A stretch of DNA of 64,000 nt from Ostreococcus lucimarinus (taxonomy: Eukaryota), in NCBI GenBank assembly GCA_000092065.1, contig CP000581.1; one strand, written 5' to 3'. Position numbers and translations under genes: made by a program. Positions 2,224-61,500 of this stretch are shown here, one piece after another (within the stretch, counting starts at the first letter, position 1; each line of letters opens with the position of its first letter). The notes beneath the pieces are model-generated. The model worked only from the letters and a program-made list of their open reading frames with translations. It was not told the DNA's origin and ran no database searches.

Positions 2224-4911
2224 ATGACCGAATCCAAGGACGAGGTCAAGAAAGAAACCAAACCCGCCGATCCATCGCTGGCCATCCTCGAGCGCAAGAA
2301 GGCGCCGAACAGGCTCGTCGTCGGTGCGTGCGCGCGCGTCGCGATCACGATTTGTCGACGCGACGCGAGAAATCCGCGTCGTTCGACGCGACGAGCGAGC
2401 GACTGACGCCCTGCGCCGACGCGCGACGCGCGCAGATGAGGCGATCAACGACGATAACTCCGTCGTGGCGCTGAACCTGCAAAAGATGGACGAGCTGCAG
2501 TTGTTCCGAGGGGACACCGTGCTGCTCAAGGGCAAAAAGCGAAAGGACACGGTGTGCATCGTGCTCGCGGACGAGAGTTGCGAGGAGGGGAAGATTCGCA
2601 TGAATAAGGTGGTGCGGAAAAACTTGCGGGTGCGACTTGGGGACGTCGTGAGCGTGCATCAGGTGCGTTTTGTGAATCGACTGGGAGGGAGACGTTCGAG
2701 CGACGCGACGCGACGCGGAGAGAAGAGAAGGTTGAAGAAACGAGGTCGATTGGCGATCTCGGAAAGAGTTGGACAAAGTGACTGACGAACGAACGTTGGG
2801 TGCGATTTTCGCGCGAAAACTAGTGTACGGATGTGAAGTATGGTAAGCGCGTGCACGTGTTGCCGTTCGGTGATTCGATCGAAGGCGTGACTGGGAACTT
2901 GTTCGACGTGTACTTGAAGCCGTACTTTTTGGAGGCGTACCGACCGGTGAGAAAGGGCGATACGTTCTTGGCTCGCGGTGGTATGCGGGCGGTGGAGTTC
3001 AAAGTCGTCGAAACCGATCCCGCGGAGTATTGCATTGTCGCCCCGGATACGGAGATCTTTTGCGAAGGAGAGCCCATCAACCGTGAGGACGAGGAGCGCC
3101 TCGACGACGTCGGCTACGACGACGTCGGCGGGGTTCGCAAGCAAATGGCGCAAATCCGCGAACTTGTTGAGTTACCGCTTCGACACCCGGCGTTATTTAA
3201 GACGATTGGGGTCAAGCCGCCGAAAGGTATCTTACTTTACGGCCCTCCCGGTAGCGGAAAGACTTTGATTGCTCGCGCTGTGGCCAACGAAACCGGCGCC
3301 TTTTTCTTCTTGATCAACGGCCCCGAAATCATGTCCAAGCTCGCCGGTGAATCCGAATCGAACTTGCGTAAGGCGTTCGAAGAAGCCGAAAAGAACGCTC
3401 CGGCGATCATTTTCATCGATGAGATTGACTCCATTGCCCCGAAGCGCGAAAAGACCAACGGCGAAGTCGAACGTCGCATCGTTTCGCAGCTTTTGACTTT
3501 GATGGATGGCATGAAGTCACGATCGCACATCATCGTCATGGGCGCGACGAACCGACCGAATTCTATCGACCCAGCTCTTCGTCGATTCGGCCGCTTCGAT
3601 CGCGAGATCGATATTGGTGTTCCGGATGAAGTCGGTCGTCTCGAAGTGTTGCGCATTCACACCAAGAATATGAAGCTCGACGAAGCCGTTGACTTGGAAA
3701 AGATTTCCAAGGAGACGCATGGCTACGTCGGCGCCGATTTGGCCGCGCTTTCTACCGAAGCCGCGCTTCAGTGCATCCGTGAAAAGATGGATCTCATCGA
3801 TCTTGAGGATGAGAACATTGACGCCGCTGTCTTAGATTCTATGGCCATCACCAATGAGCACTTCGCCACGGCGTTGACCACGTCGAACCCGTCTGCACTG
3901 CGCGAGACTGTCGTCGAAGTGCCAAATGTTTCTTGGGACGACATTGGTGGTCTTGAAGGCGTCAAGCAAGAGCTTCAAGAGACTGTGCAATACCCCGTCG
4001 AGCACCCGGAAAAGTTTGAAAAGTTTGGCATGGCGCCTTCCAAGGGTGTGCTCTTCTACGGTCCGCCGGGTTGTGGTAAGACGCTCCTCGCCAAGGCGAT
4101 CGCGAACGAGTGCCAAGCGAACTTTATCAGTATCAAGGGTCCGGAGCTTTTGACCATGTGGTTTGGTGAATCTGAAGCCAACGTGCGCGAGATTTTCGAC
4201 AAGGCACGTCAAAGTGCTCCGTGCGTGCTCTTCTTCGACGAGCTCGACTCCATCGCCAACCAGCGCGGTAACAGTGCTGGTGACGCTGGTGGAGCCGGTG
4301 ATCGCGTGTTGAATCAGCTTCTCACGGAGATGGACGGCATGGGCTCGAAGAAGACTGTGTTTATCATCGGCGCCACGAACAGACCGGACATCATCGACTC
4401 TGCTCTCATGCGTCCGGGTCGCCTCGATCAACTCGTGTACATTCCGCTTCCAGACGAACCTTCTCGCTTGAGCATCTTCAAGGCAAACTTGCGAAAGTCT
4501 CCGATCGCTGCCGACGTTGATCTCGAAGTCTTGGCCAAGTTCACGAATGGTTTCTCCGGTGCGGACATTACCGAGATATGCCAGCGCGCGTGCAAGTACG
4601 CCATTCGTGAGAGCATTCAACGTGATATCGAGGCCGAACGTGCCGCTGCTGTGAACCCGGATGCGATGCAAGACGAGAACGCCGAGGACCCGGTGCCTGA
4701 AATTACCAAGGCGCACTTCGAAGAAGCGATGAAGCACGCGAGAAAATCTGTCACCGATGCGGACATTCGCAAGTACCAAACCTTTAGCCAAACGCTTCAC
4801 CAAGCGCGTGGATTCGGTGCGAGCGACTTCCAATTTCCAGATGCCCAGGGTGGTGGCGCGAGCGCCGGTACGCCCGCGGCCGCGGCTGCGGACGACGATT
4901 TGTACGACTAA
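2224..4911 (+). CDS. CDC48: CDC48/p97 AAA+ ATPase (transitional ER ATPase), 3 exons
   Basis: Exons 2224..2323, 2436..2662, 2824..4911. Exon 1 ([10 protein letters not shown]…NRLVV) and exon 2 ([31 protein letters not shown]…VSVHQ) reproduce the conserved CDC48 N-domain upstream of the 692-aa ORF, which carries two Walker A/B cassettes ([16 protein letters not shown]). Introns are 112 and 161 nt, with GTGCGT donors and ACTGAC branch boxes (branch A at 2406 and 2785). Confidence 0.95.
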
Positions 4912-5115
4912 GGGTAGCTCAATTTTTGCGACGAACACAAACAAACACTCCGAACTTTAGTGATACATTCAATTTTTAATGAACGCAAGAAGATGACGAC
5001 GACTCCCACTCCCACTCCAATTATGTTTACATTTTCAAAAGCTAGGTCTACACCGCATCGGCGCTCGCGAGACAACGCTCGCGCGTCCGCGTCGGAAATC
5101 TTCTTTCCGAACCGC

Positions 5116-6196
5116 TTACTCCTTGGATTCAAGAGAACTCGCACCCGAGATAATCTCGATCAACTCGGTCGTAATCGCGGCTTGACGCGTACGGTTGTAA
5201 AGCAAAGTGAGCTTTTGAAGCATGTCACTCGCATTCTTACTCGAGTTCTCCATCGATTGCATGCGCGAGCCCAACTCAGACGTGTTGTTCTCCAACATGG
5301 CGTTGTACAACAACGCGCCCATCTTGAACTCGGAGAGATCGAGGAGGAACTCCGATCGGTCGGGTCCTTCGATTTCATAAGAATCAAACTCATTCACACC
5401 CTCTTCCGCCGCCTTCTCGAGCTCTTCGCTGGACAAGACAGTCGCAACCGTAGGCTTGAAGGAAATCGCAGAGGCGAAGCGGTTGAACACCAGCTGTGTC
5501 TTCGGCGCGTTTTGCGCCATAATCTCGTCAGCGATCGCGGAAGCGGTTCCAAAAGTTAACGGCTGCTTCGTCGTGTCCACAACGACGTTGTTGATTCGAT
5601 CCGGGTAAAGCCTGTTGAGCTGCGCTCGCGCCTTGTCGCCGACGACGTTGATTCTCGCCCCCGGACTCATCGCGTTCAAAACGGTCGAGTACTTAACCAC
5701 GGCGGTGTTAATACCACCACACAAACCCTTATCGGACGAGATCGGCACGACGAGCGTGCTGTCCGTTTCAGTCCCCGGGGTATCCCCGAGCAAACGCACG
5801 AACGGATTCACGAGCGCGCGCGACTTCTCGCACTTCGTTTGCGCCCCCTTGAGGCGAGACGCGGCGACCATCTTCATCGCCTTCGTAATCTTTTGAATAT
5901 TCCCGACCGATCGCATTCGAATCGCCACCGCTTGCAAAGAGACGGTCCTCACGTTCGCCGGCACCCTACGTTCGTTTCGCGCATCCGCGCACCACCGTCA
6001 GTCGTCGTCCTTCGCGCCGACCTCCAGGTCCCAGACCCCGATCGCGCCGACTTCAAAGGTCCGTCCCTCGTCGCGTCCCGATCGCGTTTTCGCGCGTCCG
6101 CGCCCATCATCGCGCGCGCACATATATCCCCCGCCATCTCGCGTTCGCTCGCGCGCATCGCGTCGCTCGCGCGCACCCTTCGCTCGCGTTGACCAT
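5116..6196 (-). CDS. ATP3: Mitochondrial F1 ATP synthase gamma subunit, 2 exons
   Basis: Exon 2 (5116..5965) encodes a canonical gamma subunit (…NIQKITKAMKMVAASRLKGAQ…DKGLCGGIN…LLYNRTRQAAIT…). The proposed 20-nt exon 1 (6177..6196: ATG GTC AAC GCG AGC GAA GG) has a GTGCGC donor, an ACTGAC branch box (A at 5998) and a TAG acceptor at 5966-5968, all phase-consistent. The presequence would be unusually short, so exon 1 is lower confidence (~0.5). Confidence 0.8.
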
Positions 6197-60395: not shown

Positions 60396-60445
60396 CGTCG
60401 AACGTCGAGCCGTCGATCAGTGCCGGGCGCGCGCCACACGACGAC

Positions 60446-61500
60446 ATGCCGCGCTCGCGGCGCGCGGCGCTCGCGCTCGCGCTCTGCGCGCTCGCCGCGC
60501 GGTGCGCGACGACGCGCGCGTTCGTCCTCAACCTTCGTCGGGAATCGACGGAGTGTCTGTACGCGGTGCGGGCGCGATGATCGATGCGAAGCGACGCGCA
60601 GAGTTTCGCGTCGCGTTCCAAACGACTGACGACGACGACGACGACGCCGACGACGCGCAGACGCTGCGCGCGGACGATACCGTGAATTGCGATGCGATGG
60701 ACGTCGTCGTGCACGCGCGGTTCGTCCTGCGCGAAGGGACGGACGTGGAGGGGACGCTGCGGGACGCGCGCGGCGCGGAGGCGGCGCGCTGGACGTTCGA
60801 CGAGCGACGAAGCGACGGCGACGCGGACGACAGAGGACGGGCGAAAGAGATCGAGGTGAAGACGCGTGGATGCGGGGATTATGAGGTGTGCTTTCATCAC
60901 GCGCGCGGGAAGTCGAAGGAGGCGAGGATAGAGGTTGATTATTTTCAGGCGTTGCGCGAACCGTCGGCGAACGGCGACGACGTCGAGGCGAGGATAGAGG
61001 ACGAATCGGAGAAGGCGAAACGTGAACGCGCGAAACGATCGACGAGCGAGGGACTCCGGACGGATGGCGTGTTGAGCGTGTCGAGCAAGGCGTCGGGGTT
61101 GAACAATTGGGTGCAGCAGTTACGAGAAGAGATGAATTATTTACGCGTGAGAGCCGAGCGACACAAAAAAACGGTGGAATCGAACGCGCGACGCATGGTT
61201 CGCACGACTTTCATAGAAGTCTGCGTCCTCATCGGCGTCACCGGGGTACAGGTGATGACGGTGAAACGATTTTTCGACGTTCAGACGCGCTCGCACGAGC
61301 GTTTCCGTACACAATTCGGCGGCGCGTCGTCCGCGTTCGCCGGCGGTTTCGAAGCCGCCTCGCGCCACGTCGCCGGTCCGATGGCGGATGCGTTCTCATC
61401 CGGCGCTAACGCCGCGCAGCGCGGCGTCGCGGGTCTCTTAAAATCAATCGGCCGCTCTTCCGCGCCATCGCGCGCGAGGCACGATTACCACCTAGGATAG
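60446..61500 (+). CDS. p24/emp24 (TMED) cargo receptor: signal peptide + GOLD domain + coiled-coil + TM, 2 exons
   Basis: Exon 1 60446..60565 (MPRSRRAALALALCALAARCATTRA|FVLNLRRESTECLYA) is in a frame not listed in the ORF track. GTGCGG donor; ACTGAC box (A at 60629); acceptor CAG ends at 60660. Exon 2 60661..61500 (…GCGDYEVCFHHARGKSKEARIEVDYF…TM…VKRFF). The unusually long post-TM tail (~75 aa) is unresolved. Confidence 0.7.

What the first reader, a model, noticed from the sequence alone, without database searches (positions are those of the whole stretch)
2324..60660. Every modelled intron (18/18) carries an invariant ACTGAC branch-point box, and donors follow a GTGCGY consensus
Each of the 18 introns I could define has the hexamer ACTGAC (usually gACTGACga) with its branch A 17-55 nt upstream of the 3' splice site. 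The genes are CDC48 x2, ATP synthase gamma, dynamin, PLD, CenH3-like x2, PRP38, kleisin x2, prefoldin 6, Sin3, PHF5A, type-I membrane protein, WDR6-like, Sec61 beta and p24. Thirteen of 18 donors are GTGCG[T/C/A/G]; the others are GTAAGT, GTATGT and GTAGGT. This yeast-like, near-invariant branch site in a GC-rich alga is a strong and exploitable signal. It let me find exons the six-frame ORF track misses, e.g. the 7-nt first exon of Sec61 beta, the 20-nt exon of ATP synthase gamma and the signal-peptide exons of PLD and p24. Because GTGCG also reads as Val-Arg/Ala in frame, several introns are read through by the ORF caller and masquerade as coding sequence. I found no evidence that these introns share longer sequence (no introner-like family), only the splice motifs.
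Basis: seen in the sequence. Interest (0 to 1): 0.5.

Follow-up and report, generated by a model that had tools for sequence, protein, structure and literature searches.

The report
Known Ostreococcus intron branch-point signal
The window is part of chromosome 1 of the tiny green alga Ostreococcus lucimarinus, and its introns do carry a near-invariant ACTGAC branch-site box and GTGCG donor sites, but exactly this was published for this genome in 2008, so the finding is real and ordinary.

Summary
The window is Ostreococcus lucimarinus CCE9901, on the 1.15-Mb record and not the atypical chromosome 2.

I rebuilt the introns without relying on the motif and found 19, not 18. Eighteen carry ACTGAC, with the branch A 17-55 nt (median 31) from the 3' splice site. 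The extra one, the 5'-most intron of the H3-like gene, carries GCTGAC. Sixteen of 19 donors are GTGCGN.

Support for the junctions:
- Spliced cDNA contigs: 5 junctions.
- Exact identity of the spliced products to RefSeq proteins: 10 introns.
- Gapless alignment to solved homologues, or a Pfam domain spanning the junction: the rest.

Orthologous introns in O. tauri and another Ostreococcus keep position, donor and box while their interiors diverge.

Irimia & Roy 2008 reported, for EST-confirmed non-chromosome-2 introns of this same genome:
- 87% ACTGAC and the extended GACTGACG;
- the GTGCGTG donor and the CGCAG acceptor;
- a box-to-AG distance of 20-35 nt.

Later papers extend this to Mamiellophyceae and report a standard U1 snRNA.

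The parts
2324..2435 (+). CDC48 intron 1. 112 nt, donor GTGCGT, box gACTGACg, branch A 29 nt from the AG.
   Evidence: Absent from cDNA contig L011. The spliced product equals XP_001415566.1. The orthologous intron in L015 keeps GTGCGT and ACTGAC.
2663..2823 (+). CDC48 intron 2. 161 nt, donor GTGCGT, ACTGAC 38 nt from a TAG acceptor.
   Evidence: Absent from cDNA contig L011. RefSeq identity. Conserved in L015 and L017.
5966..6176 (-). ATP synthase gamma intron, the only one in this gene. 211 nt, donor GTGCGC, ACTGAC 32 nt from the AG.
   Evidence: The single-intron model equals XP_001415896.1. The L015 orthologue has ACTGAC 31 nt from its AG.
11592..11719 (-). Dynamin intron. 128 nt, donor GTGCGT, ACTGAC 29 nt from the AG.
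   Evidence: Absent from cDNA contigs L009 and L010. Gapless alignment to solved dynamins across the junction [13 protein letters not shown]. Conserved in L015.
17547..17662 (+). PLD-like gene intron after the signal-peptide exon. 116 nt, donor GTGCGC, ACTGAC 17 nt from the AG.
   Evidence: Absent from cDNA contigs L012-L014. The product equals XP_001415569.1. The O. tauri orthologue sits at the same position but has ACTAAAC.
24811..24918 (-). H3-like gene intron 3. 108 nt, donor GTGCGT, ACTGAC 28 nt from the AG. Its length is a multiple of three and it has no stop codon, so ORF callers read through it.
   Evidence: The three-intron model equals XP_001415904.1. Gapless alignment to histone H3 across the junction. 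The O. tauri orthologue has ACTGAC 29 nt from its AG. Frame check.
25032..25266 (-). H3-like gene intron 2. 235 nt, donor GTATGT, ACTGAC 36 nt from the AG.
   Evidence: The three-intron model equals XP_001415904.1 and uses the first CAG. The O. tauri orthologue has donor GTGCGC and box GCTGAC.
25313..25475 (-). 163 nt, donor GTGCGC, variant box GCTGAC 27 nt from the AG.
   Evidence: Found by a relaxed motif scan. It is needed to give XP_001415904.1. The O. tauri orthologue also has GCTGAC, 29 nt from its AG.
25682..25808 (+). PRP38 intron. 127 nt, donor GTGCGT, ACTGAC 35 nt from the AG.
   Evidence: Residues 1-199 align without gaps to human PRP38A across the junction. The O. tauri orthologue has ACTGAC 31 nt from its AG.
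30463..30557 (-). Rad21/kleisin intron 2. 95 nt, donor GTAGGT, box ACTGACc 55 nt from a TAG acceptor.
   Evidence: Alignment to the Rad21 N-terminus across the junction PTPL|ALRL. The O. tauri orthologue has ACTGAC 27 nt from its AG.
30666..30738 (-). Rad21/kleisin intron 1. 73 nt, donor GTGCGT, ACTGAC 25 nt from the AG.
   Evidence: Alignment to Rad21 across the junction GQIW|ILAN. The O. tauri orthologue has ACTGAC 22 nt from its AG.
31057..31188 (+). Prefoldin 6 intron. 132 nt, donor GTGCGT, ACTGAC 31 nt from a TAG acceptor.
   Evidence: The product equals XP_001415573.1. The O. tauri orthologue has ACTGAC 31 nt from its AG.
35804..36064 (+). Sin3 intron. 261 nt, donor GTGCGA, ACTGAC 31 nt from the AG. 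Exon 1 encodes MKRSRDDGPGAGAAIKR.
   Evidence: Absent from four independent cDNA contigs, L005-L008. My first 46-nt model, with the donor at 36019, was rejected.
48984..49149 (+). PHF5A intron 1, directly after the ATG. 166 nt, donor GTGCGG, ACTGAC followed by a (GAC)9 run, 36 nt from the AG.
   Evidence: Residues 1-110 align without gaps to human PHF5A. The GAC run varies in length among environmental contigs, 166 versus 169 nt.
49223..49351 (+). PHF5A intron 2. 129 nt, donor GTGCGT, ACTGAC 29 nt from a TAG acceptor.
   Evidence: Gapless alignment to human PHF5A across the junction EKC|DGKC.
55727..55901 (-). Intron of the type-I membrane protein gene. 175 nt, donor GTGCGT, ACTGAC 32 nt from the AG.
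   Evidence: A single CHB_HEX_C_1 domain match spans the junction. The O. tauri orthologue has ACTGAC 34 nt from its AG. The exact product is not in the protein collection.
58464..58732 (+). Intron of the WD40 (WDR6-like) gene, the only one far from a 5' end. 269 nt, donor GTAAGT, ACTGAC 22 nt from a TAG acceptor.
   Evidence: The product equals XP_001415582.1. The O. tauri orthologue has ACTGAC 27 nt from its AG.
60133..60388 (-). Sec61 beta intron after the 7-nt first exon ATGTCAG. 256 nt, donor GTGCGC, ACTGAC 24 nt from a TAG acceptor.
   Evidence: The product equals XP_001415914.1. O. tauri keeps ATGTCCG|GTGCGG...ACTGAC...TAG.
60566..60660 (+). p24/EMP24 gene intron. 95 nt, donor GTGCGG, ACTGAC followed by a GAC run, 31 nt from the AG.
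   Evidence: One EMP24_GP25L domain match spans the junction. The O. tauri orthologue has ACTGAC 28 nt from its AG. The intron is 89 nt in one environmental contig.

Best explanation
These are the ordinary U2-type spliceosomal introns of the intron-poor bulk of the Ostreococcus lucimarinus genome. (G)ACTGAC(G) is their branch-point sequence, the counterpart of yeast UACUAAC.

The inferred mechanism runs as follows. SF1/BBP binds the box first. The box then pairs with the GUAGUA box of U2 snRNA, with the G of ACUGAC as a G-U wobble. This bulges the second A, which attacks the GTGCGN donor. The first YAG 17-55 nt downstream becomes the acceptor, with almost no pyrimidine tract in between.

Because the genome has few introns, selection keeps each close to one optimal signal. 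The result is the near-invariant box, the strong donor (AG|GTGCGTG) and the CGCAG acceptor.

Shown here:
- the segments are removed from mRNA;
- the box is strongly confined to introns;
- it sits at a fixed distance from the acceptor;
- it is conserved across species.

Inferred from general spliceosome knowledge:
- which A is the branch nucleotide;
- the contacts with U2 and SF1.
For: Identity of the window
- Spliced and unspliced products are exact matches to O. lucimarinus CCE9901 proteins on a 1,152,508-bp record.

Splicing
- cDNA contigs lack exactly the Sin3, dynamin, CDC48 (two) and PLD introns. Otherwise they are collinear with about 21 kb of the window. In that motif-independent sample, 5 of 5 removed segments carry ACTGAC.
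- Ten introns give products identical to RefSeq proteins.
- PHF5A (two), PRP38, kleisin (two), dynamin and H3-like intron 3 give gapless or near-gapless alignments to solved homologues.
- In p24 and the membrane protein, one Pfam domain match spans the junction.

Signal
- 18 of 26 ACTGAC lie in 3 kb of intron, about 93-fold enriched, P about 1e-20.
- Consensus sequences are GGTGCGTgc at the donor, GACTGACGAcG at the box and CGCAG at the acceptor. The box-to-AG median is 31 nt.

Conservation
- 17 orthologous introns were compared (4 in L015, 13 in O. tauri). They keep their position with diverged, indel-rich interiors.
- 14 have ACTGAC, 2 GCTGAC and 1 ACTAAAC.

Literature
- PMC2483917 reports the same signals for this genome.
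- PMC3879977 reports AG|GTGCGT plus NCTGAC as the canonical Mamiellophyceae intron.
- bioRxiv 10.1101/2022.06.08.495308 finds a standard U1 snRNA in Mamiellales.
Against: - No lariat or branch-point mapping was available, so the branch nucleotide is inferred from the motif's likeness to yURAy and from its position.
- The snRNA genes are not in the window, so pairing could not be checked here.
- One intron in the window uses GCTGAC, and one O. tauri orthologue uses ACTAAAC, so the box is not obligatory.
- Six junctions rest on homology or annotation logic only: the membrane protein, p24, PRP38, both PHF5A introns and H3-like intron 1. Two searches of metagenome contigs for spliced junctions found nothing.
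Confidence: 0.93

Rival explanations
1. The pattern is a by-product of how the introns were found. The reader used ACTGAC and GTGCG to define introns, so 18/18 is circular and says nothing about real introns.
For: The window as a whole has no excess of ACTGAC (26 against 21 +/- 5). An intron with a variant box was indeed missed. An intron-like ACTGAC...CAG at 14201 is not an intron.
Against: Junctions were confirmed without using the motif, by cDNA contigs, RefSeq identity and homologue alignments. In the roughly 21 kb covered by cDNA, every removed segment carries the box. The O. tauri annotation of the syntenic 14-35 kb block has introns only in the same five genes.
Confidence: 0.03
2. The shared motifs come from a family of mobile introns (introner elements, as in Micromonas) that spread through the genome carrying their own branch box.
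For: Without low-complexity filtering, several intron pairs align at 75-83% over 80-100 nt. Micromonas RCC299 IE-C introners carry GACTGACG.
Against: With filtering, only matches of 45 nt or less remain. The long matches are multiple overlapping hits within GACGCG and GAC repeats. The introns sit at conserved positions in species about 25% diverged at the nucleotide level, so they are old and not recent insertions.
Confidence: 0.02
3. ACTGAC is a binding site for a factor unrelated to branch formation, such as an intronic enhancer or a promoter element, and the true branch point lies elsewhere.
For: No branch mapping was done. One copy lies 19 nt upstream of a mapped transcript start, at 14201.
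Against: The box matches the universal yURAy branch consensus. It sits at a fixed distance from the acceptor, not from the gene start. It lies on the sense strand in all 18 cases. It is the only conserved internal block in orthologous introns.
Confidence: 0.02

Closest known systems
Canonical (non-chromosome-2) introns of Ostreococcus lucimarinus, as described by Irimia & Roy 2008, PLoS Genet 4:e1000148 (PMC2483917)
   Same: It is the same genome and the same signals.
- The paper reports ACTGAC in 87% of EST-confirmed introns and GACTGACG in 66.5%. Here the figures are 18/19 and 14/19.
- Both show the GTGCGTG donor and the CGCAG acceptor preference.
- The paper gives a box-to-AG distance of 20-35 nt. 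Here 14 of 19 fall in that range.
   Different: Nothing of substance. The window is a 19-intron sample of that set. It adds locus-level detail: a conserved GCTGAC exception, GAC-run length polymorphism, and corrected gene models.
Canonical Mamiellophyceae introns (Verhelst et al. 2013, PMC3879977) and the Mamiellales 5' splice-site and U1 analysis (Roy & Bowser 2022, bioRxiv 10.1101/2022.06.08.495308)
   Same: The donor is AG|GTGCGT and the branch motif is NCTGAC. U1 snRNA keeps the standard pairing region, so the +3G/+4C donor is not matched by a changed U1.
   Different: In Micromonas the box is reported 43-52 nt from the acceptor. Here the median is 31 nt.
Saccharomyces and hemiascomycete introns with an invariant UACUAAC box
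   Same: These are intron-poor genomes with a near-invariant branch box, a strong donor that departs from GUAAGU, and introns crowded at the 5' ends of genes. Here 18 of 19 lie within the first 330 nt of coding sequence.
   Different: The box is ACUGAC, with G in place of the A that pairs with U2. The donor is GUGCGU, not GUAUGU. The introns are GC-rich (0.50-0.75) with purine-rich spacers and no T-rich tract. This is independent convergence, not shared ancestry.
Introner elements of Micromonas (IE-A to IE-D)
   Same: They are spliceosomal introns in a related alga, and the IE-C class carries GACTGACG.
   Different: Introners are multi-copy near-identical sequences. The introns here share only splice signals and low-complexity repeats.

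Membership tests
Canonical non-chromosome-2 Ostreococcus introns (Irimia & Roy 2008) | Located in O. lucimarinus, outside the atypical half of chromosome 2. | tested here: met
   Window proteins are exact matches to O. lucimarinus CCE9901 RefSeq proteins on a 1,152,508-bp record. GC is 0.52-0.65. That this record is chromosome 1 is inferred from its length and from the numbering of the protein accessions.
Canonical non-chromosome-2 Ostreococcus introns (Irimia & Roy 2008) | GT-AG boundaries, with the segment removed from mRNA. | tested here: met
   All 19 are GT...AG. Five are shown absent from cDNA contigs. The rest rest on RefSeq identity or homology.
Canonical non-chromosome-2 Ostreococcus introns (Irimia & Roy 2008) | 5' splice-site consensus GTGCGTG. 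| tested here: met
   16 of 19 are GTGCGN and 9 are GTGCGT. The consensus is GGTGCGTgc.
Canonical non-chromosome-2 Ostreococcus introns (Irimia & Roy 2008) | ACTGAC branch box, extended form GACTGACG. | tested here: met
   18 of 19 have ACTGAC and 14 of 19 have GACTGACG. One has GCTGAC.
Canonical non-chromosome-2 Ostreococcus introns (Irimia & Roy 2008) | Box-to-AG distance with a broad peak at about 20-35 nt, and a CGCAG acceptor preference. | tested here: met
   14 of 19 distances fall in 20-35 nt (range 17-55, median 31). 11 of 19 introns end in CGCAG.
Canonical non-chromosome-2 Ostreococcus introns (Irimia & Roy 2008) | The A of the box is the lariat branch nucleotide. | not testable with these tools
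   No lariat reads or branch-mapping data were accessible.
Introner elements (Micromonas type) | Many copies with collinear sequence similarity beyond the splice signals. | tested here: not met
   An all-against-all comparison with low-complexity filtering gives only matches of 45 nt or less.
Chromosome-2 (BOC1-type) Ostreococcus introns | Weak branch signal and a GTRNGT donor, as given by Irimia & Roy 2008. That these introns are also very short (about 40-65 nt) is from my own recollection of Derelle et al. 2006 and was not checked here. | tested here: not met
   Lengths are 73-269 nt, and both the box and the GTGCG donor are strong.
U12-type (minor spliceosome) introns | An (A/G)TATCCTT donor and a TCCTTAAC branch box close to the acceptor. 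| tested here: not met
   No donor or box of that type occurs among the 19.

The most novel reading that the evidence does not exclude
Between the box and the acceptor these introns have almost no pyrimidine tract. The median T fraction is about 0.11, pyrimidines are about 0.38, and the spacer is often a pure (GAC)n run whose length varies between natural strains.

The most novel reading not excluded is that Ostreococcus picks its 3' splice sites by a branch-box-first route that does not need a pyrimidine tract. A changed or dispensable U2AF large subunit could underlie this, and the extended GACTGACGACG would do the work that the tract does elsewhere.

A smaller variant concerns the GCTGAC box conserved in the first introns of the H3-like gene in two species. 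It could be a deliberately weakened, regulated branch site.
Probability: 0.25. Interest if true: 0.3.

Novelty: already known. Interest (0 to 1): 0.1.

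Why it matters
It matters little as a discovery. The signal was described for this very genome in 2008 and has since been generalised to Mamiellophyceae.

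Its practical value is for annotation. The donor-box-acceptor triplet predicts tiny first exons that ORF-based callers miss, such as the 7-nt exon of Sec61 beta, the 3-nt coding exon of PHF5A and the 50-nt exon of Sin3. It also shows up imperfect public models. The RefSeq Sin3 entry is a 962-aa "partial" protein, whereas four cDNA contigs support a 1033-aa product.

The check also shows that a tool-free reading of raw sequence recovered a true genome-wide splicing rule from 64 kb.

Tried and rejected
1. A 46-nt Sin3 intron with its donor at 36019. Rejected for the 261-nt intron from 35804, which gives the conserved MKRxRDD start and is the segment missing from four cDNA contigs.
2. A two-intron H3-like model that needed the second AG of CAGAG. 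Replaced by the three-intron model, which equals XP_001415904.1.
3. ACTGAC at 14201 as a 5'-UTR intron of the glycerol-3-phosphate dehydrogenase gene. Rejected because SMART-adapter cDNA contigs start at 14220.
4. GCTGAC at 41354 as an intron in the FKBP/PDZ gene. Rejected because the ORF is continuous from the M at 41530 and cDNA contig L006 is collinear there.
5. The other relaxed-motif candidates. All lie within uninterrupted coding sequence or on the antisense strand.
6. Avoidance of ACTGAC in sense-strand exons. Observed 1 against 3.5 +/- 1.7 after synonymous-codon shuffling, P = 0.12, not significant.
7. snRNA or tRNA genes in the window that could bear on pairing. None found.
8. Exact spliced-junction searches in metagenome contigs for H3-like intron 1 and for Sec61 beta. 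No hits.
9. The spliced PRP38, PHF5A, p24 and membrane-protein products. They are not in the protein collection as exact sequences, so those four genes have no annotation or cDNA check.
10. The syntenic loci L019-L024. They turned out to be 99% identical to the window and so say nothing about conservation.
11. A SECIS element after the thioredoxin reductase gene. No Rfam match.

Full report
**What the window is.** Exact look-ups of proteins translated from the window return Ostreococcus lucimarinus CCE9901 RefSeq entries. Examples are XP_001415566.1 (CDC48), XP_001415567.1 and XP_001415573.1, all on one record of 1,152,508 bp. GC is 0.52-0.65. The window holds about 40 closely packed genes on both strands. 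It has no tRNA gene and no Rfam family match. It therefore belongs to the normal, intron-poor part of the genome and not to the atypical half of chromosome 2.

**Checking the observation.** ACTGAC occurs 26 times on both strands, no more than dinucleotide shuffles give (21 +/- 5). GTGCGY is not enriched overall either (165 against 188 +/- 13). The signal lies in where the copies sit. Most are in the context gACTGACg, with a GTGCG about 60-250 nt upstream and a YAG 10-55 nt downstream.

I built gene models from reading-frame logic and then tested them independently. The result is 19 introns, listed under parts:
- 18 contain ACTGAC, with the branch A 17-55 nt (median 31) from the acceptor G.
- Lengths are 73-269 nt (median 132).
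- Donors are GTGCGT in 9, GTGCGC in 4, GTGCGG in 2 and GTGCGA in 1, plus one each of GTATGT, GTAGGT and GTAAGT.
- The consensus sequences are GGTGCGTgc, GACTGACGAcG and CGCAG.

Eighteen of the 26 ACTGAC copies fall in 3,012 nt of sense-strand intron. That is about 93 times the density elsewhere (Poisson P about 1e-20). After shuffling the introns, a mean of 0.4 of the 19 contain the hexamer.

**Are the introns real?**

Transcript evidence:
- The protein collection holds spliced products that can only come from cDNA assemblies. Fetching their contigs gave L005-L008 (Sin3), L009-L010 (dynamin), L011 (CDC48) and L012-L014 (PLD).
- Aligned to the window, these contigs skip exactly 35804-36064, 11719-11592, 2324-2435, 2663-2823 and 17547-17662. 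Otherwise they are collinear at 99.7-99.9%.
- L012 and L013 begin with the SMART template-switch adapter, which confirms that they are cDNA.
- Together they cover about 21 kb of the window. In that motif-independent sample, all five removed segments carry ACTGAC.

Annotation evidence:
- My spliced products are identical to RefSeq proteins for CDC48, ATP synthase gamma, PLD, the H3-like protein, prefoldin 6, the WD40 protein and Sec61 beta. That covers 10 introns.

Homology evidence:
- PHF5A aligns without gaps to human PHF5A over residues 1-110, across both junctions.
- PRP38 aligns without gaps to human PRP38A over residues 1-199.
- The H3-like protein aligns to H3 across intron 3, kleisin to Rad21 across both junctions, and dynamin to solved dynamins.
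- In p24 and the membrane protein, a single Pfam domain match spans the junction.

- *One intron was missed.* A relaxed scan (NCTRAC with a GTGCG donor) turned up a further intron at the 5' end of the H3-like gene: minus strand 25475..25313, donor GTGCGC, box GCTGAC 27 nt from the CAG. With it the gene reads MARRLHGKRFK|APQRRL...[15 protein letters not shown]..., the second intron uses its first CAG, and the 135-aa product equals XP_001415904.1. The box is therefore 18/19, not invariant.
- *The donor count is wrong.* It is 15/18, or 16/19 overall, not 13/18.
- *No 20-nt exon is needed.* ATP synthase gamma needs one 211-nt intron to reproduce its RefSeq protein.
- *In-frame read-through is rare.* Only H3-like intron 3 is read through completely in frame.
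- *One look-alike is a false positive.* ACTGAC at 14201 followed by CAG at 14221 looks like an intron 3' end, but the mRNA 5' end maps to 14220.
- *The other copies are not in introns.* Of the remaining non-intronic ACTGAC copies, five lie antisense to genes, one is in-frame coding sequence in dynamin (ETD), and one (+42231) lies antisense to the rhomboid-gene ORF at the junction with the tRNA methyltransferase gene.

**Conservation.** Syntenic loci were fetched from a second Ostreococcus species (L015-L018, about 75% nucleotide identity) and from two O. tauri genomes (L025 and L026, 71-73%). Seventeen orthologous introns were located.
- They sit at the same positions, and their interiors are diverged with many indels.
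- The donor, the box and the acceptor are retained: 14 have ACTGAC, 2 have GCTGAC (H3-like introns 1 and 2 in O. tauri) and 1 has ACTAAAC (O. tauri PLD).
- The 7-nt first exon of Sec61 beta is conserved as ATGTCCG|GTGCGG.
- In the O. tauri annotation of the 14-35 kb block, comparing gene span with product length shows introns only in the same five genes. This argues that no box-less introns were overlooked there.

**Mechanism.** The box matches the universal yURAy branch consensus. It differs from yeast UACUAAC by one A-to-G change, which still pairs with U2 as a G-U wobble. That pairing is established knowledge and was not tested here.

The spacer to the acceptor is purine- and GC-rich. The median T fraction is about 0.11, and the spacer is often a (GAC)n run. 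The length of that run differs among environmental O. lucimarinus contigs: 95 against 89 nt in p24, and 166 against 169 nt in PHF5A intron 1. The exact distance is therefore not critical.

Eighteen of 19 introns lie within the first 330 nt of coding sequence, as is typical of intron-poor genomes. Intron interiors share only low-complexity GACGCG and GAC repeats, so there is no introner family.

**Comparison with what is known.**
- Irimia & Roy 2008 (PMC2483917) analysed this same assembly. For 319 EST-confirmed non-chromosome-2 introns they reported ACTGAC in 87.15% and GACTGACG in 66.5%. They also reported the atypical GTGCGTG donor, a CGCAG acceptor preference and a box-to-AG distance of about 20-35 nt. 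In chromosome 2 only about 5% of introns share a single box motif (CTGACG).
- Verhelst et al. 2013 (PMC3879977) describe AG|GTGCGT plus NCTGAC as the canonical intron of all Mamiellophyceae.
- Roy & Bowser 2022 (bioRxiv 10.1101/2022.06.08.495308) report that Mamiellales U1 snRNAs keep the standard pairing region despite the unusual donor.

Every element of the finding is therefore already in the literature.

**Verdict.** It is already known. Interest is low (0.1).

Noticed in passing
window 63279-63296 (+): The thioredoxin reductase ORF ends ...GGC TGC TGA GGA TAA. This is the Gly-Cys-Sec-Gly end of selenoprotein thioredoxin reductases, so the TGA at 63288-63290 is probably selenocysteine and the true stop is the TAA at 63294. 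RefSeq names the protein 'putative selenoenzyme'. No SECIS element was found by Rfam in 63280-63700.
   Followed up: partly
window 14201-14221 (+): A perfect-looking intron 3' end (gcACTGACgacgcgacgcgaCAG) lies just upstream of the glycerol-3-phosphate dehydrogenase gene. SMART-adapter cDNA contigs L012 and L013 start at 14220, so it lies upstream of the transcript start and is not an intron.
   Followed up: yes
window 60625-60660 and 49109-49149; loci L019 and L020: The (GAC)n run between the branch box and the acceptor varies in length among environmental contigs that are 99.7% identical to the window. The p24 intron is 95 or 89 nt, and PHF5A intron 1 is 166 or 169 nt. The box-to-acceptor distance therefore shifts by 3-6 nt in natural populations.
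   Followed up: partly
window 35754-39116 (+): The RefSeq Sin3 entry (XP_001415575.1) is a 962-aa 'partial' protein. Four cDNA contigs support a 1033-aa product with a 50-nt first coding exon, MKRSRDDGPGAGAAIKR. The spliced PRP38, PHF5A, p24 and membrane-protein products are not in the protein collection as exact sequences. The public models for these genes may differ from the ones supported here.
   Followed up: partly
L025 17717-17583 (minus strand), O. tauri: The O. tauri orthologue of the PLD intron sits at the same position (YDHQ|NETY). It has gagACTAAACga where O. lucimarinus has ACTGAC, a natural variant of the box.
   Followed up: partly
window 60395/60446, 56164/56227, 25508/25628 and 45697/45775: Divergent gene pairs have start codons only 50-120 nt apart: Sec61 beta and p24, the membrane protein and the WD40 gene, the H3-like gene and PRP38, and an unnamed gene and mitochondrial L2. 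Their promoters and 5' UTRs must be shared or must overlap.
   Followed up: no
window 50825-50849 (+): ACTGACttttttactcgtttcgCAG is the only box in the window followed by a T-rich tract. It lies antisense to the 1290-aa WD40-bromodomain gene. It is probably chance, and no plus-strand gene was identified there.
   Followed up: no
loci L001, L015 and L023 (gene calls from metagenomes): Prokaryote-style gene callers used on metagenome contigs split these algal genes at their introns or read through them. Examples are a 204-aa 'Histone' that reads through intron 3, and CDC48 split into products of 153 and 692 aa. Many database 'proteins' from Ostreococcus contigs are therefore exon fragments.
   Followed up: no
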